The notes: generated from the sequence alone by a model not told the origin. Counted from the first letter of the stretch, positions 3,014-28,320 are shown. The stretch: DNA of 64,000 nt from Candidatus Blackburnbacteria bacterium (GCA_016183565.1 JACPEJ010000001.1:486479-550478), one strand, 5' to 3'. Made by a program: numbers and translations.

Positions 3014-6000
3014 ATGATAAAGTTGCCGGTTTCTTGTAAAATTAGCTTTACTTTTGCAATATTATTCTTTATTCTTGCTTCTTTTCCCTCGATAGCCAAG
3101 GCTTCTAATCACAGGTGTGGAGATTACAACGTAACACAACAATGCGCATTTGTAGAATCACTTCCTGTAACATACCCCAGTGGTTGTAGCGGAGCCAGAG
3201 ATTTGTATAACTGTAATGGCTTAACTTGTGCTATTGAATCTGCTCCCAGTTGTAGCGTTGTACAGCGTGTTTGTGAATATAATAGCGACAGATATAACTG
3301 TGGAGAAGCTTTCGCCGATCCCAGCTACTGCAAAACAGTTCTTCAAGGCGGTGATGGGGTAGGAGGATATGGCTCAATAAATACGTGGCCACCCAATCGC
3401 AATAGTCAAAACGCCTATTGCGGTAAGTACAAAGACTCTGATCCTCGTGACCCGCGTCCTTATTGTGATGATTGGTGGAACGCTTGTTTAGCAAGCTGCG
3501 AAGGAGCTACTTCAGACACTAATTATGCATGTCCAGGAGTTCAACAGTGTGACCAGTCTCACGTTTGTGTTACTCAAGCACCACAAACCACTTTGTTGGT
3601 TAATAGCCAGTCTTCGGTCACTATTACAGAAGGCAATAGCGCAACTCTTGCCTGGTCTTCAGTTCGAGCCGAAACGTGTACGGCGTCGGGGGCATGGAGT
3701 GGCGGTAAAGTACATCAAGGCAGTGAGTCTACAGGTGATTTATCAGTCAGACAGGGGGACGGAAATCAGTCTACTTATACTTATACGTTGACTTGCTCGA
3801 ACACAGCCGGAAGTGGAAATAGCCCTGTGAGTGTTACAGTTATTGTTACGCGGGCAGCCACTCCCAACACCCCAACTCCCACTACTCCAGTTATAACAAA
3901 CACACCTACTCCTACTGCCACCACTGCTCCACCTTGGACTTGTGATGTTTGGTCCACAGAGGGAGACAGAAATGCTGCGGGGGGGGCGTGCAATGCAAAT
4001 GAGTATTGCGTTGAACTTGGTGGAACTTACAATGATCCGAATAATGCAATAAGGTGGCCTGTGCAGCAGAATTGGACTTGGGGGTCAAACCTAACACCCG
4101 CGAGAACTTTTAAGAGTTTCCCCTACAACAGCAGTACTTTGGTTAATATGACTGCGGTTGATAATAGCGGTTCAGGCACTTCTCAAGCTTGCACTCCCAA
4201 AACTGTGAATGTAGGTCCTCAGAGTAATCCCGGAGGAACAACACCTACTCCTAATCGTGGGGGTGGAAGGGCAACACCCACTCCAACGACCGGGCAACCT
4301 TTGTCAGGTACTGGAGCAATAAGGTTTTTTAACTCTAATTGTATTACCCCCTATACTGGCCCAAGTACTTTGCGCGTTCTAACACATGCTCAGTTTGGTG
4401 ATGGATCATGGGAAAACGGGAACGGGCATAACAGCTTGTTTTACCCCTCTGTTACTCATAGTAGCGCTCAGGATACAGGTATTTGTGACAGGCGGGAGTG
4501 GCATTATTATTATGATCCTGGTTATCAGATTAGTAGCGATGGCACTTTTGCCGGCTGTCCTGCTCAAAATATGGATGGTACCGGGGAATGGGTGTGTACT
4601 GGGCAGCCAGATTGTGGTTACAATGCGTACGGAGACTGGGAATGCCAGCAGTGTCCAGGCTACAGGGATGGTGAAGGCAATGACGTTTGCAAAGAAGATA
4701 CTGATTCGGAAGAAAGATTTCCCCGTTGCTTTTCCGCTTTTTCCAGTCCTGCAACAATAACTTCTGCTAACCCAACTCTTAGTGTGCACAGCGAACGCAG
4801 TATGCAAAGAACTTTTAGTGTCGGAGCCCCAACAGGTGTGAGGATTAAGGTTATTAGGGTTTGTACTGGGGATGGGTGTAATTGGTCCAGGGTTGGTGAT
4901 CCTTCTGTTTCTCCTAATGGAGGTGGTGGTGCTAGTGTTGTTAAAGACTTTGGTACGAGCAGCGCCGGGCCCACTAATTACTTCGCAAGTCCCATGGAAG
5001 GAGCCGATGGTAATACAAGCTCATATGTGTATGATGTTTGTGTTGAAGATGGTACTGGTGGGGTTACTGTTGGCGGTAATGTGTTTACTGATTATGGTTG
5101 TGATGGGAGGAAAGATGCTGTTGATACGAATTATGGAGGCGCGAGGATAAGGATTACCGGGGGAAGTACGGACGAGATAAAGACAACCGATAGCTCGGGC
5201 AATTATACTTCCTCTGCGCTTGTGAAGGGGCAAAACTATACTGCAGATGTTGAGGTGCCTTCGGGCCACCGAGCGTCTACAACAGACCCGTTAGTCTACA
5301 ATAATCTTAATAGTAATATTACTAATGCTAACTTTGGGTTTTGTCCTACTGCATCTTCTTGGTTTCAAACTAAAGATTCGGATTTGCTCTCTTCCGGGAA
5401 TATGAATTCAAGCATTCCTAGGCAGTGTGTACAGCAGTTGGATTCTTGTTCGCCGTATCTTTCTTTAAATGGGGATGGGGGGTATCCTGGGGTACCTGTT
5501 TATAATGGTACTTTGAGTTTAGGTTGGGGGACGGTTTCAGCAAATACTTCGTCAACCGGTTGGAATGCGAATACGCGATATACAGGTCGAGCATATACTT
5601 ATGCGTCGTTTGCTGCAAAGATGCCAACGAGCGGGGTAACAACGACCCCCGATACTATTGATAGTGATGGTTACTTTAGCTTAAGCGGGACTCCTGACAG
5701 TAATGGGTATAAGTGGTTTAAGGCTACTGGCAACTTAACGATAAATGGGGAGGGCAATATTAACAATCAGAAAGTGATTTTGTTTGTGCCTGGGAATTTG
5801 ACAATTAACAATAGAGTGAGGCTTAGGAAAGGGGAAGGGTTTTTTGCGGTGTTTGTTGGGGGAGAGATATCAATAAGTCCGGAGGTAATCTACCAATCTC
5901 AACCTGCGCCAAAGAGTAATTCGCAACCCGGGCTTGAGGGGATGTTCTTTGCTGATGGGAATATAAGGACTGGTACAAGAAGTACTGCAACACCTGTTAA

Positions 6001-6199
6001 TGATGATCAGCTTTTTGTACGAGGCGCTTTGGTAAGCAAGAGTGGCATTCTTCTTCAAAGAGATTTGGATCCGGCAAGAAGTGGTACGGGAAATAATACT
6101 ACGCCTTCGGAGTTTGTCGAGTATGCTCCGGATTTAGTCTTCAATTTTCCCACAGCTTTGAGTCGGGAGGGGGTGGTTTGGGAAGAGGTTGCACCGTAG
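3014..6199 (+). CDS. Large Cys-rich secreted surface protein (1061 aa) with Thr/Pro linker
   Basis: Signal peptide (ILFFILASFPSIAKAS). Cys-rich N-terminal module. Low-complexity T/P linkers (PTPTPTTPVITNTPTPTATT, GTTPTPNRGGGRATPTPTT). C-terminal motif EFVEYAPDLVFNFPTALSREGVVWEEVAP. Confidence 0.6.
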   Translation: MIKLPVSCKISFTFAILFFILASFPSIAKASNHRCGDYNVTQQCAFVESLPVTYPSGCSGARDLYNCNGLTCAIESAPSCSVVQRVCEYNSDRYNCGEAFADPSYCKTVLQGGDGVGGYGSINTWPPNRNSQNAYCGKYKDSDPRDPRPYCDDWWNACLASCEGATSDTNYACPGVQQCDQSHVCVTQAPQTTLLVNSQSSVTITEGNSATLAWSSVRAETCTASGAWSGGKVHQGSESTGDLSVRQGDGNQSTYTYTLTCSNTAGSGNSPVSVTVIVTRAATPNTPTPTTPVITNTPTPTATTAPPWTCDVWSTEGDRNAAGGACNANEYCVELGGTYNDPNNAIRWPVQQNWTWGSNLTPARTFKSFPYNSSTLVNMTAVDNSGSGTSQACTPKTVNVGPQSNPGGTTPTPNRGGGRATPTPTTGQPLSGTGAIRFFNSNCITPYTGPSTLRVLTHAQFGDGSWENGNGHNSLFYPSVTHSSAQDTGICDRREWHYYYDPGYQISSDGTFAGCPAQNMDGTGEWVCTGQPDCGYNAYGDWECQQCPGYRDGEGNDVCKEDTDSEERFPRCFSAFSSPATITSANPTLSVHSERSMQRTFSVGAPTGVRIKVIRVCTGDGCNWSRVGDPSVSPNGGGGASVVKDFGTSSAGPTNYFASPMEGADGNTSSYVYDVCVEDGTGGVTVGGNVFTDYGCDGRKDAVDTNYGGARIRITGGSTDEIKTTDSSGNYTSSALVKGQNYTADVEVPSGHRASTTDPLVYNNLNSNITNANFGFCPTASSWFQTKDSDLLSSGNMNSSIPRQCVQQLDSCSPYLSLNGDGGYPGVPVYNGTLSLGWGTVSANTSSTGWNANTRYTGRAYTYASFAAKMPTSGVTTTPDTIDSDGYFSLSGTPDSNGYKWFKATGNLTINGEGNINNQKVILFVPGNLTINNRVRLRKGEGFFAVFVGGEISISPEVIYQSQPAPKSNSQPGLEGMFFADGNIRTGTRSTATPVNDDQLFVRGALVSKSGILLQRDLDPARSGTGNNTTPSEFVEYAPDLVFNFPTALSREGVVWEEVAP

Positions 6200-6251: not shown

Positions 6252-7067
6252 ATGTATAAGTCATTGCTGGTTGTCAAACTTGGTGGAAGTGTAATAACCG
6301 ACAAAGAAAGTTTTGTGCCAAGACCTAGGTTAAAGATTGTTGGGCAATTAACCAAAGACATAGCAACAATCTACAAGAAGAAAAGACATAAGATCATACT
6401 AGTTCATGGCGCAGGATCGTTTGGTCACCCGATTGTAAAGAAGTATGGTCTTCACAAGGGAATGAACAGTGAGGCACAAAAGTTAGCCTACAGTCAAACG
6501 CTTCAGAACATGATTGAGCTAAACAGTATTGTGATACAAAACTTAATCAAACTTGGAGTTCCGGCCGTAAGTTTACCACCCCATGCTTTTACTATTCACA
6601 CTAAAAGTAGGCTCACAAAGCTAGACTCTAAAATAATAGAAATATATCTAAAAAACGGCCAAGTACCTGTTTTGTTCGGAGATGCAGTTTTAGATGAAGA
6701 ATGGGGTTGCTCCATTCTTTCAGGCGATACTATTGTTTCTTATTTTGCCAGGAGGCTTAAAGCAAAAAAAGTGGTATTTCTGTCTGATGTGGACGGAATA
6801 TTTAACAATGATCCCAAAACTAACCCCAACGCAAAACTTATCCCGTTAATAAACAATAAGAACTTGCCAAGTGTGCTAGAAAGTTTGCGGGCAAACAGCA
6901 GTAGGAGTGAAAGGGCAGATGTAACCGGCGAGGTGTATGGCAAGATATTGTCAATTAAGAAAGATCTAAAGGGTATTGAGACTGTTATAGCCAACGGGCT
7001 TGGCTTGAACAGCTTAACCGATGCTTTGCAAAATAGAGGAAGGTTAACAAGGTTTTACTTTGGTTAG
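6252..7067 (+). CDS. ipk: Isopentenyl phosphate kinase (amino-acid-kinase fold)
   Basis: VVKLGGSVITDK ... ILVHGAGSFGHP ... ILSGDTIVSYFA ... LSDVDGIFNNDP ... DVTGEV. These match the characteristic IPK motifs (KLGGS, HGGGxFGHP, SGDxIV, DVTGGM). Confidence 0.75.
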   Translation: MYKSLLVVKLGGSVITDKESFVPRPRLKIVGQLTKDIATIYKKKRHKIILVHGAGSFGHPIVKKYGLHKGMNSEAQKLAYSQTLQNMIELNSIVIQNLIKLGVPAVSLPPHAFTIHTKSRLTKLDSKIIEIYLKNGQVPVLFGDAVLDEEWGCSILSGDTIVSYFARRLKAKKVVFLSDVDGIFNNDPKTNPNAKLIPLINNKNLPSVLESLRANSSRSERADVTGEVYGKILSIKKDLKGIETVIANGLGLNSLTDALQNRGRLTRFYFG

Positions 7068-7068
7068 T

Positions 7069-7743
7069 TCAACTACTTGTAGTTGTAGATGATAGAGGCT
7101 CGGTTGCTTTCAAGGAGTCTAAGGAGAGGGGTACCAACTTGTTGGTAGGTGAGATTAGGTTCTCAAAGCTACCATCAATGATGCATCCTTCGAGAATCTT
7201 TTTTACGCCAGGTCTGAGAGGGTACTCCAGAAGTTCTTGTGGTTTTCGCCATCCCACTGCGACTACTTCACCGTCGCCAGATGTACCGATGAGGCTGTTT
7301 GGTTCTCCAGTGTAGTGCAAAATCACCACGCGTGCCAAAACACCCGGTCCAAAAACACTCTCTCCGAGAAAACATTTATCAGGATTTACTGCAAGGTGTC
7401 CATTGGCCAGAACTTCTGGGCCAAGTTCTTCTTGAATTCCACGGATTACATTGCTTGCCCAATCCTCGCCCCGTTCTGCAGTTTCACAAACAACACTAAA
7501 ATTCCCAATTTGCCCTCCGTCAGTGTCGTGAACTCTATTTTCCTGTACCAGAAGCATTTCTCCTTGGTTGTTTACGATGAATAAGACTGCCCCGATCTTT
7601 CTATAGTGTTTTTCAAGTTCGCTACTTCTGCTGAGCTTTCTCTCTACCATAGTGTTGGCGCTGTTTAGAACAAAAGGTGCAGCGTTGTGATAGTATACTA
7701 TTAGTTCCTGCTTTGATACAAATGACGCCTGAAGGAAGAACAT
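7069..7743 (-). CDS. Nudix-family hydrolase-like protein (possible IPP isomerase-type role given context); start possibly internal at nt 7650
   Basis: Contains E-x7-R-G-I-x-E-E-L-G (EDWASNVIRGIQEELGP), resembling the Nudix box ExxxxxxxREUxEExGU with one deviation. It is flanked by isoprenoid genes. No IDI-1 CCSHP motif, so function is uncertain. Confidence 0.4.
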   Translation of the reverse strand: MFFLQASFVSKQELIVYYHNAAPFVLNSANTMVERKLSRSSELEKHYRKIGAVLFIVNNQGEMLLVQENRVHDTDGGQIGNFSVVCETAERGEDWASNVIRGIQEELGPEVLANGHLAVNPDKCFLGESVFGPGVLARVVILHYTGEPNSLIGTSGDGEVVAVGWRKPQELLEYPLRPGVKKILEGCIIDGSFENLISPTNKLVPLSLDSLKATEPLSSTTTSS

Positions 7744-9548
7744 CGCCCGAGTCCGAACGTTGGGTAGTTCCCAGACACCTTGTTATTATCCCCGACGGAA
7801 ATGGTAGGTGGGCTCAAAAACACAACCTTCCCATAATTGAGGGCCATTTACGAGGAGCACGGAATATGCTTTCTTTCGCCGATAGAATAGACCAGCTTGG
7901 TATAGAAGTTTGTACGTTTTGGGGCTTTTCTACAGAAAACTGGACAAGGTCGAAGGAGGAGGTTGATGGGATATTTGCTGTTACACAAAATATGCTTGAG
8001 GAAAATTTGGGGGAGTGGGTAGCAAGAGGTAGGAGATTTATGCATGTTGGTAGAAGAGATAGGTTGCCACCTGAACTTCTAGGGACTATAAAGAGATTTG
8101 AGCAAGCAACAGCTCATAACCGAGGAAAGACCTTTGTTCTGGCTTTTGACTATGGCGGTAGGGATGAGATCGTCCGGGCAATAAGTAAAATAGGTGGACG
8201 GCCAGTAGGGGAGGAAGAGTTTGAAAACCTTCTCGATACGGCGGGCCTGCCGAGGCCGGATCTTATCATAAGGACCTCGGGGGAAATGCGAACATCGGGG
8301 ATTTATCCATATCAAGCAGTTTATGCAGAGTTTGTTTCCTCACAGGTTTTGTTCCCTGATTTTGATTTTAAAGAACTTGACTATTGCCTGCGTGAATTTG
8401 GAAGAAGGAAACGTCGATTCGGCGCTAGATTAGAAACTAGAACTGAACAACCATTTGGATGGTTGGGATTGCAAGAAGCGACGTTTAAAAACTTCCTAGA
8501 AGCTGTTTTGCCGAAAATTAACAATGCAACACAGTTATTTTTAGGTAACTGGAGGCATGGGAGATTTTACCGCTCCTTGGGATTGCAAGAGGATGTGGAT
8601 ATGTATAAAGATTTGCTTGTAGGCGGTAAGAAATTAAGAGCGGCTCTTGTTGTGTTTGGGTTTGAGAATGCAGGAGGAGAACCAGAGTTTCGCGATGGAG
8701 TTCTTACAGCGGCCGTAGGGTATGAAGTGATCCATAATGCTTTCTTGATTCACGACGATATAATGGACGCTTCACCTATAAGACGAGGGCAACCGAGTGT
8801 TCACGAAAGATACCGCACAAGGCACGAGCAGGGTGGTGGTATGATAAACCACTCCCAATATGGACAAGCGATCGCGCTCAACACAGGCAGTCTTGGTCCT
8901 CTTAGGGCTCAAGAAGTGTTGTGGAGTATTCAGAATAAACAAGATAGGATTGTAGAGGCGCAAAAGTTTGTTCGTTCTGTTATAGAAATCACGTTACTTG
9001 GCCAAAGGCGGGATATGACTGAGATTTCTCTTGGTAGTCTAACGGCACGGCAGGTGTTTGAGATTTGTCACCAAAAAACGGCAGTTTACTCGGTTGTTGG
9101 ACCTTTTGCATTGGGAGCAATTCTTGCCGGTGCTTCACGAAAAGAGGTTGGTCTCATTAATAGTTTTGGTGTTAATCTTGGGATTTCTTTCCAGATGATA
9201 GATGATCATCTTGGTCTTTTTGGCTCTGAAGATATAATAGGTAAGCCAGTCGGGTCGGATTTGACTGAAGCGAAGAAAACTTTACACTTTGTTAACGCTT
9301 GGGAGCGAGCAGACAATGAGCAAAGGAGATTTTTAGAGAACGTTTGGGGTAATCAAAATGTTACACTTGAGGATATAGATCATGTTAAGCAGTTAGTAGA
9401 AGATTTGGGAGTGAGGAAAGAGGTGTTGGATACAGCGAGAAGGCTTGCCAATAAAGCTAGATGTCTGGTTCCTAAAATATCCACTAGCCTAACTGCCGCA
9501 GCAATTTTGGACGAACTGATAACGTTTGTTACCGAAAGGGAGTTTTAG
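7677..9548 (+). CDS. uppS: Fusion protein: N-terminal undecaprenyl-diphosphate synthase (cis-IPPS, UppS) plus C-terminal trans-polyprenyl diphosphate synthase
   Basis: N-half: HLVIIPDGNGRWAQKHNL...GH..G...TFWGFSTENWTRSKEEV...FDYGGRDEI...DLIIRTSGEMRTSG...RKRRFG, which is canonical UppS. C-half: GGKKLRAALVV, FARM LIHDDIMDASPIRRG, FQMIDDHLGLFGSEDIIGKPVGSDLTEAKKT (SARM variant DDHLG), KT. Single 623-aa ORF. Confidence 0.8.
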   Translation: MQRCDSILLVPALIQMTPEGRTSPESERWVVPRHLVIIPDGNGRWAQKHNLPIIEGHLRGARNMLSFADRIDQLGIEVCTFWGFSTENWTRSKEEVDGIFAVTQNMLEENLGEWVARGRRFMHVGRRDRLPPELLGTIKRFEQATAHNRGKTFVLAFDYGGRDEIVRAISKIGGRPVGEEEFENLLDTAGLPRPDLIIRTSGEMRTSGIYPYQAVYAEFVSSQVLFPDFDFKELDYCLREFGRRKRRFGARLETRTEQPFGWLGLQEATFKNFLEAVLPKINNATQLFLGNWRHGRFYRSLGLQEDVDMYKDLLVGGKKLRAALVVFGFENAGGEPEFRDGVLTAAVGYEVIHNAFLIHDDIMDASPIRRGQPSVHERYRTRHEQGGGMINHSQYGQAIALNTGSLGPLRAQEVLWSIQNKQDRIVEAQKFVRSVIEITLLGQRRDMTEISLGSLTARQVFEICHQKTAVYSVVGPFALGAILAGASRKEVGLINSFGVNLGISFQMIDDHLGLFGSEDIIGKPVGSDLTEAKKTLHFVNAWERADNEQRRFLENVWGNQNVTLEDIDHVKQLVEDLGVRKEVLDTARRLANKARCLVPKISTSLTAAAILDELITFVTEREF

Positions 9549-9564
9549 ATCCAGATCGAACGGA

Positions 9565-9675
9565 ATGGGGCAGCAAACACCTACTGAGTATGTCGAATAT
9601 GCTCCTGATTTAGTCTTCAATTTTCCCACAGCGCTTTCTCGGGAGGGGTTGGTTTGGGAAGAGGTTGCACCTTGA
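9565..9675 (+). pseudogene. Orphan 36-codon remnant duplicating the C-terminal module of the 3014-6199 surface protein
   Basis: MGQQTPTEYVEYAPDLVFNFPTALSREGLVWEEVAP* is about 90% nt-identical to 6107-6199 (EFVEYAPDLVFNFPTALSREGVVWEEVAP*). No upstream domain is present. Confidence 0.4.
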
Positions 9676-9746: not shown

Positions 9747-10889
9747 ATGGCCCTAGTTAAGCCTGATACATCTCGTTTAGCAAGAATAAGAGTTGTTGCG
9801 ATTGGTGGTGGGGGAGGAAACTCGATTGCTCATATGATCGAGGAGACGAGAATTGATGGAGTTGAATTTATTACGGTTAATACAGACGCCCAGGTACTTC
9901 TTAATAATCCCGCGGATACAAAGCTTCAGATTGGGGAGAAATTAACTCGTGGTTTAGGTTCCGGTGGCGATCCCGGTATGGGGGAGCAGGCTGCTGAGGA
10001 GTCTCGGGAAAGGGTAAAGGACCTTCTTTTGGATTCGGATATGGTTTTTTTGACGGCTGGGATGGGGGGTGGGACGGGAACCGGCGCAACCCCGGTTATT
10101 GCACAAATCGCAAAAGAATGTGGTGCTTTGACGGTTGCTATTGTTACGAAACCTTTTGCTTTCGAGGGAACTCGGAGGATGGTTGTTGCTGAGGAAGGGA
10201 TAGAGAAGTTGAATGGGAATGTTGATGCTTTGATTGTTATTCCGAACCAGAGGCTGATGGATGTTATAGATAGGAGGACAACTCTTGCTGATGCGTTTAA
10301 GGTTGTTGATTCTGTGCTTTCGCAAGGTGTACAAGGAATTTCTGAGATTATTACGACACCTGGTCTTATTAACGTTGACTTTGCTGATGTCAGGGCAATT
10401 ATGAAGGATGCCGGGTCTGCGCTTTTGGGAATAGGAACGGGGGTTGGCGAGAACAGGGCGCAGATGGCGGCACGGGCCGCGATTTCTTCTCCGCTTCTTG
10501 AGGTTTCTATAGAGGGGGCAAAGGGGGTTCTTTTTAATATTGCCGGTGGTCCGGATATTACGATGTCTGAGGTTGATGAGGCAGCAAGGATTATTTCGGA
10601 GAATGCTGATGCTGATGCAAATATAATTTTTGGAGCGACTGTTAATCCTAAGCTTTCGGATCAGATAAGAATTACAGTTGTTGCAACTGGGTTTGATGAG
10701 ATGCGGGCGAGACTGGGGCGTATGGTTAATCCTGTAAAGCCAGCTCCTGTTCAACCGGAGGGTCTTATTAGCCAGCTTCCTGAGACGCGACCTGAGATTA
10801 GTCGTCCGATTATTCGGGAAGATAATGAGAAAGATGAGTGGGGTGAGAAGTTTGAGATTCCAGCATTTCTCCGGAAGGGGAAGTCGTAG
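9747..10889 (+). CDS. ftsZ: Cell division GTPase FtsZ
   Basis: RVVAIGGGGGNSIAHMIEE, VNTDAQ, the tubulin signature GGGTGTGATPVIAQIAKE, NVDFADV, and a C-terminal tail. Confidence 0.95.
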   Translation: MALVKPDTSRLARIRVVAIGGGGGNSIAHMIEETRIDGVEFITVNTDAQVLLNNPADTKLQIGEKLTRGLGSGGDPGMGEQAAEESRERVKDLLLDSDMVFLTAGMGGGTGTGATPVIAQIAKECGALTVAIVTKPFAFEGTRRMVVAEEGIEKLNGNVDALIVIPNQRLMDVIDRRTTLADAFKVVDSVLSQGVQGISEIITTPGLINVDFADVRAIMKDAGSALLGIGTGVGENRAQMAARAAISSPLLEVSIEGAKGVLFNIAGGPDITMSEVDEAARIISENADADANIIFGATVNPKLSDQIRITVVATGFDEMRARLGRMVNPVKPAPVQPEGLISQLPETRPEISRPIIREDNEKDEWGEKFEIPAFLRKGKS

Positions 10890-10934: not shown

Positions 10935-11612
10935 CTAGTCGTCTTCAATAATTAGGTTGCTAGTTATCTGAGGAATTTCTTCCAATGCCATAAATTGTAT
11001 GTAGGACTTATGCTGTGTTTTGGGAAAGAAATTCAGAATTTCCTCTGGATGGATCCACGTGGTGTTGCGTAGTCCGCAATATTCGGGGTAGGAGCTTGGT
11101 TGGTTTTGCAAGGCGTCCCCTTGCAGGATTAAGGCTTGTTTGTGAATATACCGTGACAGATGCAGAAGCTGTTCATCAGTTTTAACAAGAACGGCTTTAT
11201 AGACATCTTGGTATAATGGTCCGACTCTCTTATACTTGGAATTAAAGTACATGGTATAGCGGGTTCCTAATGAGTTCATAAAGGGGTCAATTGCACTTTG
11301 GTTATTTTGTTTGATAAGAATGTGAAAGTGGTTGGGCATGAGGCAATATGCAACGAGGATAATGTCTGTTGCGAAGTTGTTAAGCCGAAGTAGCTTTCTG
11401 ATTCGATCTTTCTCATAAGGTGAGGTTGATTGATTTCCTAATTGCTCCATAAGTAGGTCTTTGTTAGCAGGTAGCAAGTATGTTTTTAGATAGGATAGGA
11501 ATACGCCGTAGTCCTGTTGATCCTGAAAGATAAGCCTTTTCTCTACCCCGCGGTTGTAGATATGGTAGTATCCGGTTGTTACATACTCCTTAACACTGTT
11601 TTTGGAGGGCAT
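10935..11612 (-). CDS. IS200-like / REP-associated tyrosine transposase (RAYT, HUH Y1 family)
   Basis: YHIYNRGVEKRLIF ... LVAYCLMPNHFHILIK (HUH motif) ... LSRYIHKQ (catalytic Tyr region). 225 aa. Confidence 0.7.
   Translation of the reverse strand: MPSKNSVKEYVTTGYYHIYNRGVEKRLIFQDQQDYGVFLSYLKTYLLPANKDLLMEQLGNQSTSPYEKDRIRKLLRLNNFATDIILVAYCLMPNHFHILIKQNNQSAIDPFMNSLGTRYTMYFNSKYKRVGPLYQDVYKAVLVKTDEQLLHLSRYIHKQALILQGDALQNQPSSYPEYCGLRNTTWIHPEEILNFFPKTQHKSYIQFMALEEIPQITSNLIIEDD
11104..11127. repeat. REP palindrome copy b, embedded in-frame in the RAYT ORF
   Basis: ttttgcaaggcgtccccttgcagg encodes ILQGDALQNQ on the minus strand, immediately after the RYIHKQ motif. Confidence 0.65.
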
Positions 11613-11713: not shown

Positions 11714-14671
11714 TTGGGAAATATGGCTTCGGGAAAATTTAAATCCATCGACAAAGCTCAGGACCGAAATAAATTTCGGCCTGTTGATACTAAGGTTGAT
11801 TTTGTGGCGTTGGAGAGGGAATTGTTAAAGTTTTGGTATGATGCGCAGATTGTTGACAAGTACTTGACTAAGAATAGTGCTTCAGAAAAAAAATTCTCTT
11901 TTCTTGATGGCCCAATTACAGCTAATAACCCGATGGGGGTTCATCATGCCTGGGGTAGGACATACAAAGATTTGTTCCAGCGGTTTAAGAATATGCAGGG
12001 TTACAAACAGCGTTTTCAGAATGGGTTTGATGAACAAGGTTTGTGGGTTGAGGTTGAGGTGGAGAAAGAACTAGGGCTTAAAAGTAAAAAAGATATTGAA
12101 AATTTAGTGCCTAAGGATAAGTTTGCCTCTTTGGAAAAGTTTGTAAACTTGTGCAAGGAAAGGGTCAAAAAGTATTCTCTAGTTCAAACAGAACAGTCTA
12201 AACGTCTTGGTTATTTCATGGATTGGGATAATTCTTACCATACATCTTCAGATGAAAACAATTACTGGATTTGGCATTTTTTAAAAACTGTCCACGATAA
12301 AGGGTGGTTGTATAAAGGAAGAGACTCTGTGCCATGGTGCCCTCGTTGTGGTACAGCTATTTCACAACATGAGATTTTAACTGAGGAGTATAAGGAAGTA
12401 ACACACCAATCGGTTTTTGTAGAATATCCAGTATCCGGACAGGAAAACACTTATCTTCTTGTTTGGACAACTACTCCGTGGACACTACCGGCTAATGTGG
12501 CTGTTGCAGTTGATCCGAATTTGGATTATGTGCAAGTTGAAAAAGAAGGGAAGGTGTATGTTGTTGCTAAGGGTGCGGTGGGGAGGGTGTTTGGGGATCT
12601 GCCAGCCGGCGGAAAGGTGATTAGGGAATGCAAGGGAATTGATCTAGTTGGTTGGGTGTACGAGGGTCCTTTTGATAATTTGCCTCGTGTCAGGAAATCT
12701 TTAGGAGAATATAAACACGAAGCTGTTGCTACGGATCCTCTTATTTTGCCTATTAGCGATGAGGAAGGAACCGGTCTTGTGCATATTGCGCCTGGTGCAG
12801 GCTCTGAGGACTTTCAGCTGTGTAAAAAGCTTGATCTACCTGTAATTGATATTATAGATGAAGGCGCGGTTTTATTAGGAGAGTTGGGGGAGTTGGGGGA
12901 GTTGGGAGTAAAGGAGGTAATTCAACCGATTGTTTCTTACCTTGAGGAAGGTGGTTATTTGTATAAGGTTCAGGGGTATGTTCACCGATATCCGACATGT
13001 TGGAGATGTAAATCGGAGCTGGTTTGGAGGGTAGTTGACGAGTGGTACATAGCGATGGACAGGCCATCGAAATCAAAAGTCAAAAGGGAAACTTTTAGGG
13101 AGCAGATGATAGAGGTTGCGAAGAAAATAAATTGGTTGCCGAAATGGGGGTTGGACAGAGAATTAGATTGGTTAAAGAATATGCACGATTGGCTAATATC
13201 TAAGAAAAGATATTGGGGATTGGCTCTGCCAATTTGGGAATGCCGCAAATGTGGTAATTTCGAGGTGATTGGGGGTAAAGATGAACTGAGAGAAAAAGTA
13301 GTAGAAGGTTGGGATGAATTCGAGGGACATTCTCCACACAAACCTTGGATTGACCAACTGAAAATAAAGTGCTCTAAATGTAATGAGGTAACATCACGTA
13401 TTCCTGATGTTGGGAACCCTTGGTTGGATGCCGGGATAGTACCATTTTCCACAATGCCTGCGGATTGGTTCCCTGCGGATTTTATAACCGAAAGCTTCCC
13501 TGGACAATTTAAGAACTGGTTTTATGCTTTGATTGCCATGTCCACGGTCCTAAAAAGAACAAATCCTTTTAAGAGTTTATTGGGGCATGCTTTAGTGGTA
13601 GATGAAAAGGGAGAGCCAATGCACAAGAGTTCTAAAAACTTTATACCTTTTGATGAGGGAGTAGAAAAAATGGGGGCAGATGTTATGCGCTGGATTTACT
13701 CCTCACAGGATCCTTGTGCCAATGTTCCTTTAACGTACGGTATGGGGGAAGAGAAGAAGAGAAGGTTCTTTTTGATGCTTTGGAATGTTTATAACTTTTT
13801 TGTGACTTATGCAAACCTTGATGGGTGGGGGGAGGGGAATAGTTCAAAGGATATTAAATCGCAGAATATTTTGGATAGGTGGGTTATTTCTCGGTTATAT
13901 GGGACGGTAGATGAGGTAACAAAGTCTTTGGAGAATTATGATGCCAGGACTGCTGTAAATTGTATTGAGGAGTTTGTTCAGGATTTGTCTTTGTGGTATG
14001 TGCGGCGTTCTAGGGACAGAGTAGGTGTTACTGCAGAAGACTCAGCGGACAAACAATCTTTTTACCTTACGCTTTGGAGTGTTTTGACAACCCTCTCGAG
14101 GCTTCTTGCTCCTTTTGTTCCTTTTGCATCTGAGGAGATTTACAAGAACTTAACAAGAGGAGATTCTGTTCATCTTGCCTCTTGGCCTTTAGGTAACGCG
14201 GAATTGCGAGATGAGACGTTGGAAAAAAATATGACTCTTGTTAGGAAGATTGTAGAGAGAGGGCATGCGGTGAGAAAGGAGGCAAGCGTTCCGGTACGGC
14301 AACCGCTAGCAAGTGCAAAGTGCAAAGTGAAAAGTGAAAAGTTAAATGAGGAAGTACTTCAGTTGATTAAAGATGAGCTAAATGTAAAAGATGTTGAGTG
14401 GGAGGTGCAGAATGACTTAAAAGATCCGGAAGTTGAACTTGATACAACAATAACCCCTGAACTTGAAGAGGAGGGAAAAGCCAGAGAATTAGCAAGACAG
14501 ATTCAGGAGGAGAGAAAAAAGCTTGATGTTCCATTGGACGAGAAGGTGAATGTTGTTGCTCCTTGGTTGCCCGAAAGGTCGGAGGTTTTAGAGTGGCTGA
14601 AACGTAGGACTTTGGTGCAACAGTGTTCGACAGGTGATAAACTGCTGGTGGAGAGGGTAGATGAGGGTTGA
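11714..14671 (+). CDS. ileS: Isoleucyl-tRNA synthetase
   Basis: WTTTPWTLPANVAV (IleRS-specific); GFDEQGL; a degenerate HIGH region (MGVHHAWG); a KMSKS-like MHKSSKN; zinc-knuckle CPRCGT/CWRCKS; 985 aa. Confidence 0.85.
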   Translation: MGNMASGKFKSIDKAQDRNKFRPVDTKVDFVALERELLKFWYDAQIVDKYLTKNSASEKKFSFLDGPITANNPMGVHHAWGRTYKDLFQRFKNMQGYKQRFQNGFDEQGLWVEVEVEKELGLKSKKDIENLVPKDKFASLEKFVNLCKERVKKYSLVQTEQSKRLGYFMDWDNSYHTSSDENNYWIWHFLKTVHDKGWLYKGRDSVPWCPRCGTAISQHEILTEEYKEVTHQSVFVEYPVSGQENTYLLVWTTTPWTLPANVAVAVDPNLDYVQVEKEGKVYVVAKGAVGRVFGDLPAGGKVIRECKGIDLVGWVYEGPFDNLPRVRKSLGEYKHEAVATDPLILPISDEEGTGLVHIAPGAGSEDFQLCKKLDLPVIDIIDEGAVLLGELGELGELGVKEVIQPIVSYLEEGGYLYKVQGYVHRYPTCWRCKSELVWRVVDEWYIAMDRPSKSKVKRETFREQMIEVAKKINWLPKWGLDRELDWLKNMHDWLISKKRYWGLALPIWECRKCGNFEVIGGKDELREKVVEGWDEFEGHSPHKPWIDQLKIKCSKCNEVTSRIPDVGNPWLDAGIVPFSTMPADWFPADFITESFPGQFKNWFYALIAMSTVLKRTNPFKSLLGHALVVDEKGEPMHKSSKNFIPFDEGVEKMGADVMRWIYSSQDPCANVPLTYGMGEEKKRRFFLMLWNVYNFFVTYANLDGWGEGNSSKDIKSQNILDRWVISRLYGTVDEVTKSLENYDARTAVNCIEEFVQDLSLWYVRRSRDRVGVTAEDSADKQSFYLTLWSVLTTLSRLLAPFVPFASEEIYKNLTRGDSVHLASWPLGNAELRDETLEKNMTLVRKIVERGHAVRKEASVPVRQPLASAKCKVKSEKLNEEVLQLIKDELNVKDVEWEVQNDLKDPEVELDTTITPELEEEGKARELARQIQEERKKLDVPLDEKVNVVAPWLPERSEVLEWLKRRTLVQQCSTGDKLLVERVDEG
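12881..12908. repeat. In-frame 9-bp tandem repeat (gagttgggg x3) inside ileS encoding LGELGELGELG
   Basis: Direct reading. Confidence 0.6.
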
Positions 14672-15725
14672 TCCTTGGATTTTTTTGCCAGCAGTTTTTT
14701 TATCCGTTATCGGGATTTTGATTTTATCGAGTGTTTCACAGGACTCTTTCCCCAATCATTTTTTCTATCTGGGTGCAGCTTTTATTGTTTTTGTTTTGTT
14801 TGCCAATACAGACATTAAGATACTAAGGCAATTTTCGCCGGTTTTTTATTTTGTTTCAATCCTCTTTTTGCTTTTAACGCTAATATTTGCGGGTAACGTA
14901 AGAGGTTCAAGTCGGTGGCTGGCGCTTGGTGGTTTTATGTTTCAACCTTCTGAGTTGGTAAAGCCCTTCTTGGTTTTGTTTTTTGCGCATATTGTGGCAA
15001 GGGGGAGAAAACTTAAGTTTCTTTGGGTTTCTTTATTGTTTTTACCCCCTTGGTTGTTGGTTTTTCTACAACCTGATTTTGGGAGCAGTATGGTTTTGTT
15101 GAGTGGTTTTTTGGGTGTTGTTTTTTTAGGTGGTATACCTTTGCGGTTGGCAGGTTGCGCTTTTGGTGTGTTAGTCGTAGGAGCGCCTATTTTTTGGAAG
15201 TTTTTAGAGGAGTATCAAAAACATCGTATATTTTCGTTTCTTTCTCCTGGTAGCGATCCTTTAGGTACTGGCTATAATTCTATCCAGTCGGTTATAGCAG
15301 TAGGGAGCGGAGGTTTGTTGGGTCGTGGGTTGGGGCAGGGGACCCAGTCACAGCTTGCTTTTTTGCCGGAACGTCATACTGATTTTATCTTTGCTGCTAT
15401 GTCTGAAGATCTGGGTTTTATAGCGAGTGTTGCAGTTATTTTTGGCTTTGGTGTTATTTTGTTTCGTATTGTGAGTTTGATGAAGAATGATACTGAGATT
15501 TTTTCTCAAGCGCTTTTAGCTGGCATATTTTCTGTGCTGTTTGTGCATGTGGTGATAAATATTGGGATGAATGTCGGAGTGTTGCCTATAACAGGTATTC
15601 CTCTGCCTTTTATTTCGTCGGGGGGATCTTCGCTTATTTCTATGTCGGCTATGTTGGGAATGGTGTCGCAGATAGCGGGAGATTTGAATAAGAGGGGGAG
15701 TTTGGGTATAATGGGGGGAAAGTAA
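14661..15725 (+). CDS. ftsW: SEDS-family peptidoglycan glycosyltransferase (FtsW/RodA)
   Basis: About 10 TM segments. LLGRGLGQGTQSQLAFLPERHTDFIFAAMSEDLGF is the SEDS signature. Overlaps the ileS stop. Confidence 0.8.
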   Translation: MRVDPWIFLPAVFLSVIGILILSSVSQDSFPNHFFYLGAAFIVFVLFANTDIKILRQFSPVFYFVSILFLLLTLIFAGNVRGSSRWLALGGFMFQPSELVKPFLVLFFAHIVARGRKLKFLWVSLLFLPPWLLVFLQPDFGSSMVLLSGFLGVVFLGGIPLRLAGCAFGVLVVGAPIFWKFLEEYQKHRIFSFLSPGSDPLGTGYNSIQSVIAVGSGGLLGRGLGQGTQSQLAFLPERHTDFIFAAMSEDLGFIASVAVIFGFGVILFRIVSLMKNDTEIFSQALLAGIFSVLFVHVVINIGMNVGVLPITGIPLPFISSGGSSLISMSAMLGMVSQIAGDLNKRGSLGIMGGK

Positions 15726-25392: not shown

Positions 25393-25441
25393 TCGAGAGC
25401 GAGTTGCTTAATCGAAAGTGGTCTCCCCGTGGGAAACAGTT

Positions 25442-26020
25442 CTAGCCGCCACCGAGCCGGCTGGTGAACTGACCCCAATTGAGGCCAGATGTCCAGATGG
25501 TCACTGGACCATTGGCCACGACGTTGGTGTACAACGTCGAGGGGTTCCTCTGGTCCGGCGTGTGCTGGACAGTTCCGGGCCCGGTCGCGATTCGCGATGG
25601 CACGTCCGTTGTCACGATGTTGGGCCAATTGACCCGAAGGCCTGTGGCCCGAACTTGGACCCCGGAGGCCAAGACGCGGCCGGCTGGGGAGGTCTCCTCC
25701 TCAATCTGCCGAGCCTCGACGGCCAGTCCGTCCCAGGTAAGGCCGGCGGCGCGAAGCCATGCCTCGATTCCCTGGGAGCGAAAGACCGGGTCCAGCTGCT
25801 CTAGCCGAGACCAGTGGGTTTGCACCGAGGCCGTAGCGGGTGCAGCTGTAGCCGCGGGTGGTCCACCTCCGACAGCCGGCGGTGCTGACGTGGCGGTAGC
25901 AACAGCAACCGGGCCGGGTGTTGCCGTTGGCCGAGCCGGACCGAGGGGGTCGCCTACCTCACAGGCTGCTGCCGCCAATGCCAATATCGTTGTCGTGATC
26001 ACTGCGATGATGGTCTTCAT
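25442..26020 (-). CDS. Putative lipoprotein (192 aa) within the high-GC island
   Basis: MKTIIAVITTTILALAAAAC: signal peptide with Cys (lipobox-like), then a Pro/Ala/Thr-rich linker. Confidence 0.5.
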   Translation of the reverse strand: MKTIIAVITTTILALAAAACEVGDPLGPARPTATPGPVAVATATSAPPAVGGGPPAATAAPATASVQTHWSRLEQLDPVFRSQGIEAWLRAAGLTWDGLAVEARQIEEETSPAGRVLASGVQVRATGLRVNWPNIVTTDVPSRIATGPGTVQHTPDQRNPSTLYTNVVANGPVTIWTSGLNWGQFTSRLGGG

Positions 26021-26030
26021 GACTCCTCCT

Positions 26031-27491: not shown

Positions 27492-27608
27492 TTTGGACCT
27501 CCCTTTCCTGTTCCTGCTTGTATTTTTGTTTCCCTGTAAAAGTGCTCCGCTTGAGAGCGGAGAGAACGGTTTTACCTGCGTGGAACCGCTTTCTCCACGC
27601 TCAAAAGA

Positions 27609-28283: not shown

Positions 28284-28284
28284 T

Positions 28285-28320
28285 TTACAAAAAACCTGCT
28301 TCCCGAGGGCAGCAGGTTTT
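28285..28320 (-). terminator. Rho-independent terminator downstream of the sortase gene
   Basis: 8-bp stem aacctgct/agcaggtt with a 10-nt loop, followed by a U-run on the minus strand (A-run on plus). Confidence 0.5.

What the first reader, a model, noticed from the sequence alone, without database searches (positions are those of the whole stretch)
6252..9675. Compact isoprenoid module: archaeal-type IPK, a Nudix-like protein, and a single-polypeptide UppS (cis) + trans-polyprenyl synthase fusion
The 623-aa ORF at 7677-9548 joins a complete undecaprenyl-diphosphate synthase domain to a complete trans-isoprenyl diphosphate synthase domain. The UppS domain carries the DGNGRW and RTSGE motifs. 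The trans domain carries GKKLR, DDIMD and a variant second Asp-rich motif DDHLG. This would channel the allylic primer directly into lipid-carrier elongation. The two prenyltransferase classes are normally separate proteins, so this is an unusual architecture. Next to it are an isopentenyl phosphate kinase, typical of the alternative/archaeal mevalonate route and uncommon in bacteria, and a divergent Nudix-like gene. The Nudix-like protein could be an IPP isomerase-type or phosphatase partner, but that is only a hypothesis. The degenerate SARM (DDHLG rather than DDxxD) raises the question of whether the trans domain is catalytic or has become a regulatory or primer-binding module.
Basis: partly seen in the sequence, partly recalled or inferred. 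Interest (0 to 1): 0.7.

Follow-up and report, generated by a model that had tools for sequence, protein, structure and literature searches.

The report
Fused cis–trans prenyl diphosphate synthase
A tiny-genome (CPR) bacterium encodes, as one real protein, the two normally separate enzymes that build the long lipid carrier for cell-surface sugars, next to a kinase that supplies the building block; this is a rare but understandable gene fusion, not a new kind of system.

Summary
Window 7722-9548 (+) encodes one 608-aa protein, starting at ATG 7722 rather than GTG 7677. It has a complete UppS-type cis-prenyltransferase domain and a complete short-chain trans-prenyl diphosphate synthase domain. 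Both score far above Pfam thresholds, and all catalytic residues are conserved.

The fusion is not an artefact. It recurs in about 32 sequence clusters (50-80% identity), in independent assemblies, and in NCBI as MBI2268313.1 (Candidatus Blackburnbacteria), which is named only for its cis half.

The "degenerate" DDHLG motif is the normal form in this enzyme subfamily. The active, three-metal-binding M. tuberculosis enzyme Rv2173 has it, and it is fixed in 31 of 33 family members.

The fusion probably arose from a widespread adjacent cis-then-trans gene pair. One relative has only a TAG stop and two codons between the halves.

IPK is genuine, but its presence in CPR Microgenomates is already published. 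An independent IPK-UppS fusion supports the functional link.

The window's Nudix is not an IPP isomerase, and its role is unknown.

In Daviesbacteria-like relatives the fusion sits beside a much better conserved standalone trans/cis pair. It may therefore be a second carrier-lipid system rather than the housekeeping one.

Verdict: a new variant of a known kind, of moderate interest.

The parts
6252..7067 (+). Isopentenyl phosphate kinase (IPK), 271 aa; NCBI MBI2268311.1
   Evidence: NF040647 IPPK_Arch scores 218.7 bits against a cut-off of 120. PF00696 scores 152 bits. Solved IPKs match at 148.7 bits (8u0k) and 134 bits (3ll9), with the KLGGSVITDK loop and the VHGAGSFGHP motif aligned.
7069..7650 (-). 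Divergent Nudix-fold protein ('type A'), 193 aa, convergent with IPK and divergent from the fusion gene. The mechanical ORF runs on to 7743.
   Evidence: PF00293 scores 34.2 bits against a cut-off of 21.1. It is 100% identical to the NCBI 193-aa 'NUDIX hydrolase' of Ca. Blackburnbacteria, and only 7 homologous clusters exist. It has no IDI hit. The best solved-structure match is NudG at E=1e-3. The AF2 model has pLDDT 65.5, and Foldseek returns generic Nudix hydrolases. The Nudix box reads E-x7-R-G-I-Q-E-E-L-G.
7651..7721 (.). 71-bp divergent intergenic region between the Nudix and fusion start codons; presumed shared promoter region
   Evidence: The consensus scan found no above-chance promoter or terminator signal.
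7722..9548 (+). Fused cis-trans prenyl diphosphate synthase, 608 aa plus stop; NCBI MBI2268313.1, annotated only as 'di-trans,poly-cis-decaprenylcistransferase'
   Evidence: The AF2 model has pLDDT 90.2 and pTM 0.67.
7788..8423 (+). N-terminal cis-prenyltransferase (UppS-type) domain, including DGNGRW (7794-7811) and RTSGE (8271-8285)
   Evidence: PF01255 scores 203.7 bits and TIGR00055 scores 174.4 bits against a cut-off of 109.55. S. aureus UppS matches at 156 bits. Foldseek TM-scores are 0.86-0.88 to B. subtilis and S. aureus UppS. Invariant in the family (623-aa numbering): D40 G41 N42 R44 W45, F84 N88 R91, R199 T200 G202 E203 R205 S207, E218, R244 R246.
8424..8483 (+). Short inter-domain linker (about 20 aa: GARLETRTEQPFGWLGLQEA)
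   Evidence: This is the only low-confidence internal segment of the model, at residues about 229-254 in 608-aa numbering. Unfused orthologues of the trans half start just before the conserved 'F.WL.L'.
8484..9545 (+). C-terminal short-chain trans-prenyl diphosphate synthase domain, with GKKLR (8625-8639), first Asp-rich motif DDIMD (8754-8768) and second motif DDHLG (9201-9215)
   Evidence: PF00348 scores 173.7 bits. The best solved relatives are Rv2173 (8f8f, 113 bits) and C. glutamicum GGPPS (3lk5), both with DDxLG. Foldseek TM-score is 0.91 to Rv2173. The first motif is DDxxD in 33/33 members, the second starts DD in 33/33 with Gly at the fifth position in 31/33, and Phe is at -4 in 31/33.

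Best explanation
The 608-aa protein is a genuine bifunctional prenyl diphosphate synthase.

**Proposed mechanism.**
1. The C-terminal trans domain belongs to the Rv2173/IdsA-like subfamily. It condenses DMAPP with IPP to make a short all-E allylic diphosphate, most likely C15 and possibly up to C20.
2. The N-terminal UppS-type cis domain extends that primer with further IPP units into a medium-chain polyprenyl diphosphate of about C50-C60. After dephosphorylation this serves as a glycosyl carrier lipid.
3. The adjacent IPK converts isopentenyl phosphate to IPP. This feeds the enzyme, which needs about ten IPP-derived units per product.

**Origin.** The fusion arose by loss of the stop codon in a widespread adjacent, often overlapping, cis-then-trans gene pair.

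**Likely role.** In this lineage the module lies among cell-wall and division genes, so it probably feeds envelope glycan synthesis.

**Shown here.** The architecture is real. Both folds and both catalytic residue sets are conserved. The synteny is conserved.

**Inferred only.** Activity, product lengths, any channelling between the domains, and which glycan pathway is fed. The Nudix partner's role is unknown. The most plausible guess is a hydrolase acting on a (prenyl) diphosphate.
For: **Both domains look like working enzymes.**
- Both score far above the curated thresholds.
- The catalytic residues of both domains are invariant or nearly so across 20-33 fused homologues at 50-80% identity.
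- The AF2 model has pLDDT 90.2. The two domains superpose on UppS (TM 0.86-0.88) and on Rv2173 (TM 0.91).
- The DDxLG second motif is shared with Rv2173, an active E-C10-15 synthase proposed to act in glycosyl-carrier-lipid biosynthesis.

**The fusion is real.**
- It occurs in about 32 clusters, in NCBI record MBI2268313.1, and in independent Logan assemblies.

**It came from an adjacent gene pair.**
- Separate cis-then-trans genes lie side by side in Roizmanbacteria, Eisenbacteria and other MAGs.
- L008 has the two genes in the same frame, separated only by TAG and two codons.

**IPK is functionally linked.**
- IPK lies within one or two genes of the fusion in the window, L001, L003 and L004.
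- In L092 it overlaps the fusion's start by 8 nt.
- P0231 is an IPK-UppS fusion.

**Envelope context.**
- In L003 the module lies between MraY and FtsW/MurG/FtsA.
- In the window FtsZ follows directly and FtsW is 5 kb away.

**A short-chain trans product is likely.**
- Phe is fixed at -4 before the first Asp-rich motif, with Ala or Ser at -5. Bulky residues at these positions limit chain length (PMC12035560).
Against: - No biochemical data exist for any member.
- Chain lengths cannot be read reliably from sequence.
- In Daviesbacteria-like relatives the fusion sits beside a standalone trans-PT/UppS pair. The UppS of that pair is far more conserved and widespread: more than 120 clusters at 73-86% identity, against about 32 fused clusters.
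- One genome with the same backbone lacks the fusion and the IPK altogether. The fusion may therefore be an accessory system rather than the main carrier-lipid synthase.
- The window contains no IDI or mevalonate-pathway genes. The sources of DMAPP and of isopentenyl phosphate are unknown.
- The model's pTM of 0.67 gives no fixed inter-domain geometry. Channelling has no structural support.
Confidence: 0.65

Rival explanations
1. The fusion is an accessory, second polyprenyl system rather than the housekeeping UppS. The fused enzyme would make a carrier lipid that differs in primer, chain length or destination from the product of a standalone trans-PT/UppS pair. For example, it might be GGPP-primed, or used for surface or protein glycosylation. 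This overlaps with the best explanation on enzymology and differs on physiological role.
For: - A standalone trans-PT and UppS lie directly beside the fusion in L001 and L093. At least the standalone trans-PT does so in L092.
- The standalone UppS is much more conserved and more common than the fusion.
- L088 has the same backbone with the standalone pair but without the fusion or IPK.
- A glycosyltransferase-like protein (weak PpgS match) and a PLPC-like gene travel with the fusion in L001 and L092.
- The residues before the first Asp-rich motif differ: Phe at -4 in the fusion, Ile at -4 in the standalone enzyme.
Against: - In the window's own clade, no standalone copy is seen within 64 kb (window) or 16 kb (L003).
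- There the gene lies among dcw genes.
- In L004 the fusion occupies the slot that the standalone pair holds in L088, which could mean replacement rather than addition.
Confidence: 0.3
2. The trans domain has lost catalysis and serves as a regulatory or primer-binding module.
For: The fifth position of the second Asp-rich motif is Gly rather than Asp.
Against: - DDxLG is shared with Rv2173, which is active and binds three metals, and with C. glutamicum GGPPS.
- The standalone Daviesbacteria trans-PT also has DDILG.
- Invariant in the family (623-aa numbering): the first motif D360/D361/D364, R369, K467/T468, Q506, D509/D510, K523 and D528.
Confidence: 0.07
3. The single ORF is an assembly or sequencing artefact that merges two adjacent genes.
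For: Adjacent cis-then-trans gene pairs exist in other lineages, and in L008 they are in the same frame.
Against: - The uninterrupted frame is kept in about 32 clusters at 50-80% identity, from many samples and sources.
- Logan assemblies give an identical product.
- The linker aligns without frame breaks.
Confidence: 0.02
4. The cis domain makes a short-chain Z-prenyl or irregular (lavandulyl-type) diphosphate rather than a long carrier lipid.
For: Short-chain plant cis-PTs and lavandulyl diphosphate synthase match the domain nearly as well as UppS does (131-140 bits against 150-156 bits).
Against: - The best matches are bacterial UppS enzymes.
- The TIGR00055 equivalog threshold is passed.
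- The genomic context is cell-envelope genes.
Confidence: 0.05

Closest known systems
Separate short-chain E-prenyl diphosphate synthase plus UppS-type cis-prenyltransferase (E. coli IspA + UppS; M. tuberculosis Rv2173 feeding the decaprenyl-phosphate cis-prenyltransferases)
   Same: The two reactions come in the same order: DMAPP + IPP gives an allylic primer, which becomes a polyprenyl-PP carrier lipid. The trans domain's closest solved relative is Rv2173, with the same DDxLG motif and the same insertion after the first Asp-rich motif. Rv2173 has been proposed to act in glycosyl-carrier-lipid biosynthesis (PMC12035560).
   Different: Here the two non-homologous enzymes are one polypeptide joined by a linker of about 20 aa. 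I found no solved chain with this architecture and no paper describing it.
Adjacent, unfused cis-then-trans gene pairs in other uncultivated bacteria (L038 Roizmanbacteria; L013 and L018 Eisenbacteria; L008, L011, L020)
   Same: The gene order is the same and the genes often overlap. L008 differs from a fusion only by a TAG stop and two codons.
   Different: They are two polypeptides, and identity to the fused protein is 28-46%.
CPR mevalonate/IPK/IDI-I/cis-IPPS gene clusters (Hoshino & Gaucher 2018, PMC6107057)
   Same: IPK in Microgenomates, and its synteny with IDI-I-like Nudix genes and with cis-IPPS, are exactly what that paper reports. L090 shows the full MVA cluster next to trans-PT and UppS.
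   Different: The paper does not mention a cis-trans fusion. The window has no MVA genes or IDI-like gene within 64 kb.
Plant IPK / Nudix hydrolase pair that sets the IP:IPP ratio (Henry et al. 2015 and 2018, as cited in PMC8248349)
   Same: An IPK and a Nudix protein are associated with prenyl diphosphate synthesis.
   Different: No substrate is known for the window's Nudix. It is unrelated to the plant enzymes beyond the fold, and its Nudix box is incomplete.
Other UppS fusions in CPR/DPANN: IPK-UppS (P0231) and acylphosphatase-UppS (e.g. P0041)
   Same: UppS is fused to another enzyme of phosphate or isoprenoid metabolism in reduced genomes.
   Different: The partners and the domain order differ. 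None of them contains a trans-prenyltransferase.
Fungal chimeric prenyltransferase-terpene synthases such as fusicoccadiene synthase (the enzyme is named in PMC7839719; its bifunctional architecture is from my own knowledge)
   Same: A trans-prenyltransferase is fused to the enzyme that uses its product.
   Different: The partner there is a terpene cyclase, not a cis-prenyltransferase, and the organisms are eukaryotic.

Membership tests
cis-prenyltransferase / UppS (PF01255, TIGR00055) | Family HMM score above the curated threshold | tested here: met
   PF01255 scores 203.7 bits (cut-off 27). TIGR00055 scores 174.4 bits (cut-off 109.55).
cis-prenyltransferase / UppS (PF01255, TIGR00055) | Catalytic Asp in the DGNxRW loop, the RTSGE motif and the C-terminal RxG | tested here: met
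   DGNGRW, RTSGE and RRFG are present. D40, N42, R44, W45, R199, E203, R244 and R246 are invariant in 20 homologues, and they align with S. aureus and M. luteus UppS.
cis-prenyltransferase / UppS (PF01255, TIGR00055) | UppS fold | tested here: met
   The AF2 model matches B. subtilis and S. aureus UppS with TM 0.86-0.88 and rmsd about 2 A.
cis-prenyltransferase / UppS (PF01255, TIGR00055) | Product is C55 di-trans,octa-cis undecaprenyl diphosphate | not testable with these tools
   This needs an enzyme assay. Short-chain cis-PTs score almost as well.
trans-isoprenyl diphosphate synthase (PF00348) | Family HMM score above the curated threshold, and the all-alpha fold | tested here: met
   PF00348 scores 173.7 bits (cut-off 27). 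The model matches Rv2173 with TM 0.91.
trans-isoprenyl diphosphate synthase (PF00348) | First Asp-rich motif DDxxD | tested here: met
   DDIMD is present, and DDxxD occurs in 33/33 family members.
trans-isoprenyl diphosphate synthase (PF00348) | Second Asp-rich motif DDxxD | tested here: inconclusive
   The motif is DDHLG, so the strict consensus is not met at the fifth position. The same DDxLG occurs in the active Rv2173 and in C. glutamicum GGPPS, and it is fixed in 31/33 members.
trans-isoprenyl diphosphate synthase (PF00348) | No named equivalog (FPPS, GGPPS etc.) reached its cut-off | tested here: not met
   The best models are the f2 encapsulin cargo prenyltransferase at 194 bits (cut-off 450) and GGPP_syn at 153.6 bits (cut-off 500). 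Product class is therefore unassigned.
Isopentenyl phosphate kinase (NF040647) | Equivalog HMM score above the cut-off | tested here: met
   218.7 bits against a cut-off of 120.
Isopentenyl phosphate kinase (NF040647) | Gly-rich N-terminal loop and the GSFGH histidine motif | tested here: met
   KLGGSVITDK and VHGAGSFGHP align with solved IPKs 8u0k and 3ll9.
Isopentenyl phosphate kinase (NF040647) | Phosphorylates isopentenyl phosphate in vivo; source of IP | not testable with these tools
   The function of CPR IPKs is explicitly uncharacterised (PMC6107057).
Type-1 IPP isomerase (IDI-1; TIGR02150, NF002995), for the window's Nudix | Family HMM match | tested here: not met
   No IDI model matched at E<=0.01. 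The neighbouring type B and type C Nudix genes of relatives do match, at 66-89 bits, but below the cut-off of 127.
Type-1 IPP isomerase (IDI-1; TIGR02150, NF002995), for the window's Nudix | Catalytic Cys/Glu pair and the His/Glu metal ligands (residue set recalled for E. coli IDI) | tested here: not met
   An invariant Cys (C55) may align with the catalytic Cys position. The two N-terminal His, the His after the Cys and the E-N-E motif are all absent.
Nudix hydrolase (PF00293), for the window's Nudix | Pfam score above the cut-off, and the Nudix fold | tested here: met
   34.2 bits against a cut-off of 21.1. Foldseek hits are RppH, DR1025, ADP-ribose diphosphatase and NudG, but the model is weak (pLDDT 65.5).
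Nudix hydrolase (PF00293), for the window's Nudix | Complete Nudix box GX5EX7REUXEEXGU | tested here: inconclusive
   The box reads E-x7-R-G-I-Q-E-E-L-G. The E-x7-R and EE parts are kept, while the leading Gly and the Glu after Arg are missing. This form is invariant in all 7 family members.

The most novel reading that the evidence does not exclude
The fused cis-trans synthase, IPK and the odd Nudix together form a self-contained second carrier-lipid pathway in these ultra-small bacteria. It would run in parallel to the conserved standalone trans-PT/UppS pair. It would be fed by (re)phosphorylation of isopentenyl phosphate and would give a chemically distinct polyprenyl phosphate, for example with an archaeal-like GGPP primer, for a separate surface-glycan route. 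The Nudix might act on a prenyl diphosphate, either IPP/DMAPP to IP/DMAP or polyprenyl-PP to polyprenyl-P on the cytoplasmic side.
Probability: 0.15. Interest if true: 0.6.

Novelty: new variant of a known kind. Interest (0 to 1): 0.38.

Why it matters
- **A natural test of coupling.** This is a natural covalent fusion of the two structurally unrelated prenyltransferase classes. It offers a ready-made system to test whether the FPP/GGPP primer passes directly to a cis-prenyltransferase.
- **An oligomer question.** Both parent enzyme families are homodimers (PMC7839719). How two dimer-forming domains on one chain assemble is open.
- **A pointer to IPK function.** Hoshino & Gaucher called the CPR isopentenyl phosphate kinases enigmatic. 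The tight linkage to cis-prenyltransferases (8-nt overlap in L092, an IPK-UppS fusion) suggests a role in carrier-lipid synthesis.
- **An annotation fix.** Public records name the protein only for its cis half, so metabolic reconstructions of these genomes will miss the short-chain prenyl diphosphate synthase activity.
- **Limits.** It is not a new type of system. Both domains, the IPK and the general gene neighbourhood are known kinds.

Tried and rejected
1. **Frameshift or assembly artefact.** Rejected on conservation and independent assemblies.
2. **Degenerate second Asp-rich motif.** Rejected.
3. **The window's Nudix is an IPP isomerase.** Rejected by HMM, residues and fold. The AF2 model was weak (pLDDT 65.5), so the fold search only confirms a generic Nudix fold.
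4. **Mevalonate genes, IDI, standalone prenyltransferases or a UPP phosphatase in the 64-kb window.** None found in four Pfam batches and a tblastn search.
5. **Promoter, terminator or RNA elements around the module.** Signals were at chance level, and only six tRNAs were found elsewhere.
6. **GTDB genome scan for the taxonomic range of the fusion.**
   - Every match spanning both halves proved to be two adjacent genes.
   - The window's own lineage did not appear, so the range of true fusions rests.
7. **P0167 (742 aa, two matched stretches).** I suspected another cis-trans fusion. It is a trans-trans tandem.
8. **Cluster look-ups for organism names of fused homologues.** No names were returned.
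9. **Which cis enzyme is ancestral or housekeeping.** Identity comparison was inconclusive, because the comparison pool had been selected with the window protein.
10. **Literature searches for a described natural cis-trans fusion.** Nothing found. The held library lacks many subscription-journal papers, so absence is not proof.

Full report
**1. What is in the sequence**

The region holds three genes.

*IPK, 6252-7067 (+), 271 aa.*
- It scores 218.7 bits on NCBIfam equivalog NF040647, against a cut-off of 120.
- It matches solved IPKs at 148.7 bits (8u0k) and 134 bits (3ll9). The glycine-rich KLGGSVITDK loop and the VHGAGSFGHP motif align.

*Nudix-fold gene, minus strand.*
- As a mechanical ORF it runs 7069-7743.
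- NCBI annotates a 100%-identical 193-aa protein from a Candidatus Blackburnbacteria MAG (686-kb contig). That places the start at 7650.

*Two-domain ORF, 7677-9548 (+).*
- Homologue N-termini and the exact NCBI protein MBI2268313.1 (608 aa) put the real start at ATG 7722.
- NCBI names it "di-trans,poly-cis-decaprenylcistransferase", that is, for its cis half only.
- Residues 38-249 (623-aa numbering) score 203.7 bits on PF01255. Residues 309-574 score 173.7 bits on PF00348. Both cut-offs are 27.
- TIGR00055 uppS is passed at 174.4 bits against 109.55.

**2. The fusion is real**

- A search of 5.8 billion proteins found the same two-domain architecture in about 32 clusters. Twenty-nine share 50-80% identity with the window protein and are 560-631 aa long. 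Two more distant members share 37% and 30%.
- One member lies on a complete 820-kb Daviesbacteria chromosome.
- A product 100% identical across the junction was assembled independently by Logan on six contigs.
- The alignment runs through the junction without frame breaks.
- The architecture is rare. Among the top hits from 1.84 billion representatives at 50% identity, only two are full-length fusions.
- A 742-aa candidate turned out to be a trans-trans tandem.

**3. Both halves look catalytically competent**

*Conservation (623-aa numbering).*
- Cis side: D40, G41, N42, R44, W45, F84, N88, R91, R199, T200, G202, E203, R205, S207, E218, R244 and R246 are invariant.
- Trans side: G317, K318, R321, H359, D360, D361, D364, R369, K467, T468, Q506, D509, D510, K523 and D528 are invariant.

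*Structure.*
- An AlphaFold2 model built on 39 sequences has mean pLDDT 90.2.
- The cis domain superposes on B. subtilis and S. aureus UppS with TM 0.86-0.88. The trans domain superposes on M. tuberculosis Rv2173 with TM 0.91.
- No solved chain covers both domains.
- The only low-confidence internal segment is a short linker, about residues 229-254 in 608-aa numbering.
- The pTM of 0.67 means the model gives no fixed orientation between the domains.

**4. The "degenerate" DDHLG motif**

- The two closest solved relatives of the trans half carry the same variant. Rv2173 has "DDVLGVFG" and C. glutamicum GGPPS has "DDLLGVFG".
- Rv2173 is reported as an active E-C10-15 synthase, has been proposed to act in glycosyl-carrier-lipid biosynthesis, and binds three metal ions in its IPP complex. 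The construct sequence printed in the paper contains DDVLG (PMC12035560).
- Within the fused family the first motif is DDxxD in 33/33. The second starts DD in 33/33 and has Gly at the fifth position in 31/33.
- The standalone Daviesbacteria trans enzyme also has DDILG.
- This is purifying selection on a subfamily-typical motif, not decay.
- Phe is fixed at -4 before the first motif (31/33), with Ala or Ser at -5. Bulky residues at these positions limit chain length (PMC12035560). A short product of C15, perhaps C20, is therefore the best guess. It cannot be settled from sequence.
- No product-specific NCBIfam equivalog reached its cut-off.

**5. Origin of the fusion**

It returned six loci where both halves matched.
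- All six are two adjacent genes in the order cis then trans. Most are in different frames and several overlap. They include Roizmanbacteria L038, Eisenbacteria L013 and L018, and L011 and L020.
- In L008 the two genes share a frame. They are separated only by TAG, two codons and an ATG: "...RQRRFGK* HP MASV...".
- Unfused orthologues of the trans half exist at 52-55% identity. They include the N-terminal extension that forms the apparent linker (L006, L007). In L007 a separate cis gene follows in the opposite order.
- The simplest history is loss of a stop codon in a translationally coupled cis-then-trans pair. This is a classic Rosetta-stone fusion of consecutive enzymes.

**6. Neighbourhood**

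*Conserved synteny.* Nudix, the fusion and IPK stay together across the family.
- L003 (77% identity): MraY - Nudix(B) - IPK - Nudix(A, minus strand) - fusion - FtsW - MurG - (a gene with no Pfam hit) - FtsA.
- L001: Nudix(B) - fusion - PLPC-like - hypothetical 325-aa protein - IPK - trans-PT - YjbQ - UppS.
- L004 and L005: Nudix(B) - Nudix(C) - fusion - methyltransferase - HD - IPK(minus strand).
- L092: Nudix(B) - PLPC-like - hypothetical - IPK, overlapping the fusion by 8 nt - fusion - trans-PT.

*The window.* FtsZ follows the fusion directly (9747-10889), and FtsW lies at 14661-15725.

*Independent link between IPK and the cis enzyme.* P0231 is an IPK-UppS fusion. Its IPPK_Arch score is 168.9 bits (cut-off 120) and its uppS score is 226.7 bits (cut-off 109.55).

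*What was already published.* IPK in Microgenomates, and its synteny with IDI-I and cis-IPPS genes, were described by Hoshino & Gaucher in 2018. They called the function of CPR IPK uncharacterised and did not mention a fusion.

*A mevalonate cluster in a relative.* L090 shows a full cluster next to separate trans-PT and UppS genes. It holds HMGR, HMGS, thiolase, two GHMP kinases and a Nudix-MVD fusion.

*What the window lacks.* It has no mevalonate genes, IDI-like gene, standalone prenyltransferase or UPP phosphatase.

**7. The Nudix gene**

At least three Nudix types occur at these loci.
- *Type B* ("WDITGATHP") and *type C* ("LLHKAVN...YWDISAxEH") match IDI-1 models best. They score 72-89 bits, below the cut-off of 127.
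- *Type A*, the window's gene, is different.
  - It has only seven homologous clusters.
  - It has no IDI hit.
  - Its best solved-sequence match is NudG at E=1e-3.
  - Its Nudix box is incomplete (E-x7-R-G-I-Q-E-E-L-G) and invariant in the family.
  - It lacks the His and Glu metal ligands of IDI-1. That residue set is recalled for E. coli IDI. One invariant Cys may align with the catalytic Cys position.
  - Its model is weak (pLDDT 65.5). Foldseek gives only generic Nudix hydrolases and no isomerase in the top 50.

Its function is unknown. The closest functional precedent is the plant IPK/Nudix pair that sets the IP:IPP ratio. That is an analogy, not evidence.

**8.

- The standalone UppS of Daviesbacteria (L001:15987-16697) has more than 120 clusters at 73-86% identity, and the list was saturated at that level. 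The fused family has about 32 clusters and is more divergent.
- L088 shares the same backbone and has trans-PT-YjbQ-UppS, but no fusion and no IPK.
- In L001 and L093 the fusion sits directly beside the standalone trans-PT and UppS. In L092 at least the standalone trans-PT is there before the contig ends.
- The fused halves are only 31-34% identical to the standalone enzymes.
- In those lineages the fusion is therefore a second, patchily distributed system.
- In the window's clade no standalone copy is visible within 64 kb (window) or 16 kb (L003), and the context is cell-wall and division genes. Only the full genome can decide.

**9. Verdict**

This is a real bifunctional enzyme and primer hand-over is plausible.
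- It is wrong on the degenerate motif and on an isomerase-type Nudix. It overstates how unusual the IPK is.
- The physiological role, whether housekeeping or a second carrier-lipid pathway, is unresolved.
- It is a new variant (a domain fusion) of well-known enzyme kinds. The sequences are already in public databases but are annotated only for the cis half, and I found no paper describing the architecture.
- Interest is moderate.

Noticed in passing
P0231 (504 aa): A natural IPK-UppS fusion. The N-terminal domain scores 168.9 bits on IPPK_Arch (cut-off 120) and the C-terminal domain scores 226.7 bits on uppS. It links the enigmatic CPR-type IPK directly to carrier-lipid synthesis.
   Followed up: partly
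P0033-P0120, e.g. P0041: Most of the other CPR/DPANN UppS homologues listed carry an N-terminal acylphosphatase domain (PF00708) fused to UppS, giving proteins of about 345 aa. Another group of about 425 aa has a C-terminal extension with no Pfam hit (P0045). The role of a phosphatase-like domain on UppS is unexplained.
   Followed up: partly
L091:8919-9872(-), L093:2481-3440(-), L006:2-328(-): In loci where no IPK is near the fused or trans gene, a ThiL-like (PurM/AIRS superfamily) kinase sits divergently upstream. It scores 159.5 bits on TIGR01379, below the cut-off of 184. In L091 and L093 it is paired with a type C IDI-like Nudix. ThiL phosphorylates a monophosphate to a diphosphate. Whether this protein is an analogue of IPK or simply ThiL is untested.
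   Followed up: partly
L001:9446-9979, L003:8027-8548, L004:8928-9473, L088:6640-7206, L090:1007-1534: The IDI-I-like Nudix proteins of these Microgenomates score below the NCBIfam IDI cut-offs (72-89 bits against 127). They read 'WDITGATHP' where E. coli IDI-1 has its catalytic Cys ('NSVCGHP', from memory), so the Cys is replaced by Ala. The His and E-N-E ligands are kept. Whether they are real isomerases is open.
   Followed up: partly
L090:1692-3200(-): A 502-aa fusion of an IDI-like Nudix domain with diphosphomevalonate decarboxylase. It scores 260 bits on TIGR01240 against a cut-off of 171. It lies inside a complete mevalonate cluster next to trans-PT and UppS.
   Followed up: partly
L008:8580-8700: Cis- and trans-prenyltransferase genes lie in the same reading frame, separated only by TAG, two codons and ATG. 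This is a near-fusion state in a MAG labelled Chloroflexota.
   Followed up: yes
L001:11856-13588 and L092:4739-6493: Two conserved genes travel with the fusion and IPK in Daviesbacteria-like loci. One is a 238-240-aa protein with a PF00882 Zn_dep_PLPC hit on record (marked weak in L001). The other is a 325-327-aa protein with only a faint match to polyprenyl-phospho-GalNAc synthase PpgS (E=1e-4). Their functions are unknown.
   Followed up: partly
window 10935-11612 (-): An IS200-like Y1 transposase (PF01797, 43 bits) is inserted between ftsZ and ileS. This breaks what is a contiguous dcw-type arrangement in the relative L003.
   Followed up: no
window 3014-6199 (+): A 1061-aa Cys-rich, Thr/Pro-linker-containing secreted protein sits where L003 has MraY and the IDI-like Nudix. 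Its only match is a sub-threshold SdrD_B hit (28.1 bits against a cut-off of 29.7).
   Followed up: no
window 25400-28300: GC content rises locally to 0.54, against about 0.42 for the window. The region contains ORFs with no Pfam hits (25442-27491, minus strand). Next to them are a DUF11 surface-repeat protein (27609-28283) and a sortase (28382-29269). This may be an acquired surface-protein island.
   Followed up: no
window 30718-31554 (-) and 56417-56848 (+): Two phage-associated domains occur in the window: Bro-N (54.8 bits) and a putative phage metallopeptidase (60.5 bits).
   Followed up: no
P0167 (742 aa): A tandem fusion of two trans-polyprenyl synthetase domains (PF00348, two stretches, 251 bits). 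This is another unusual prenyltransferase architecture.
   Followed up: partly
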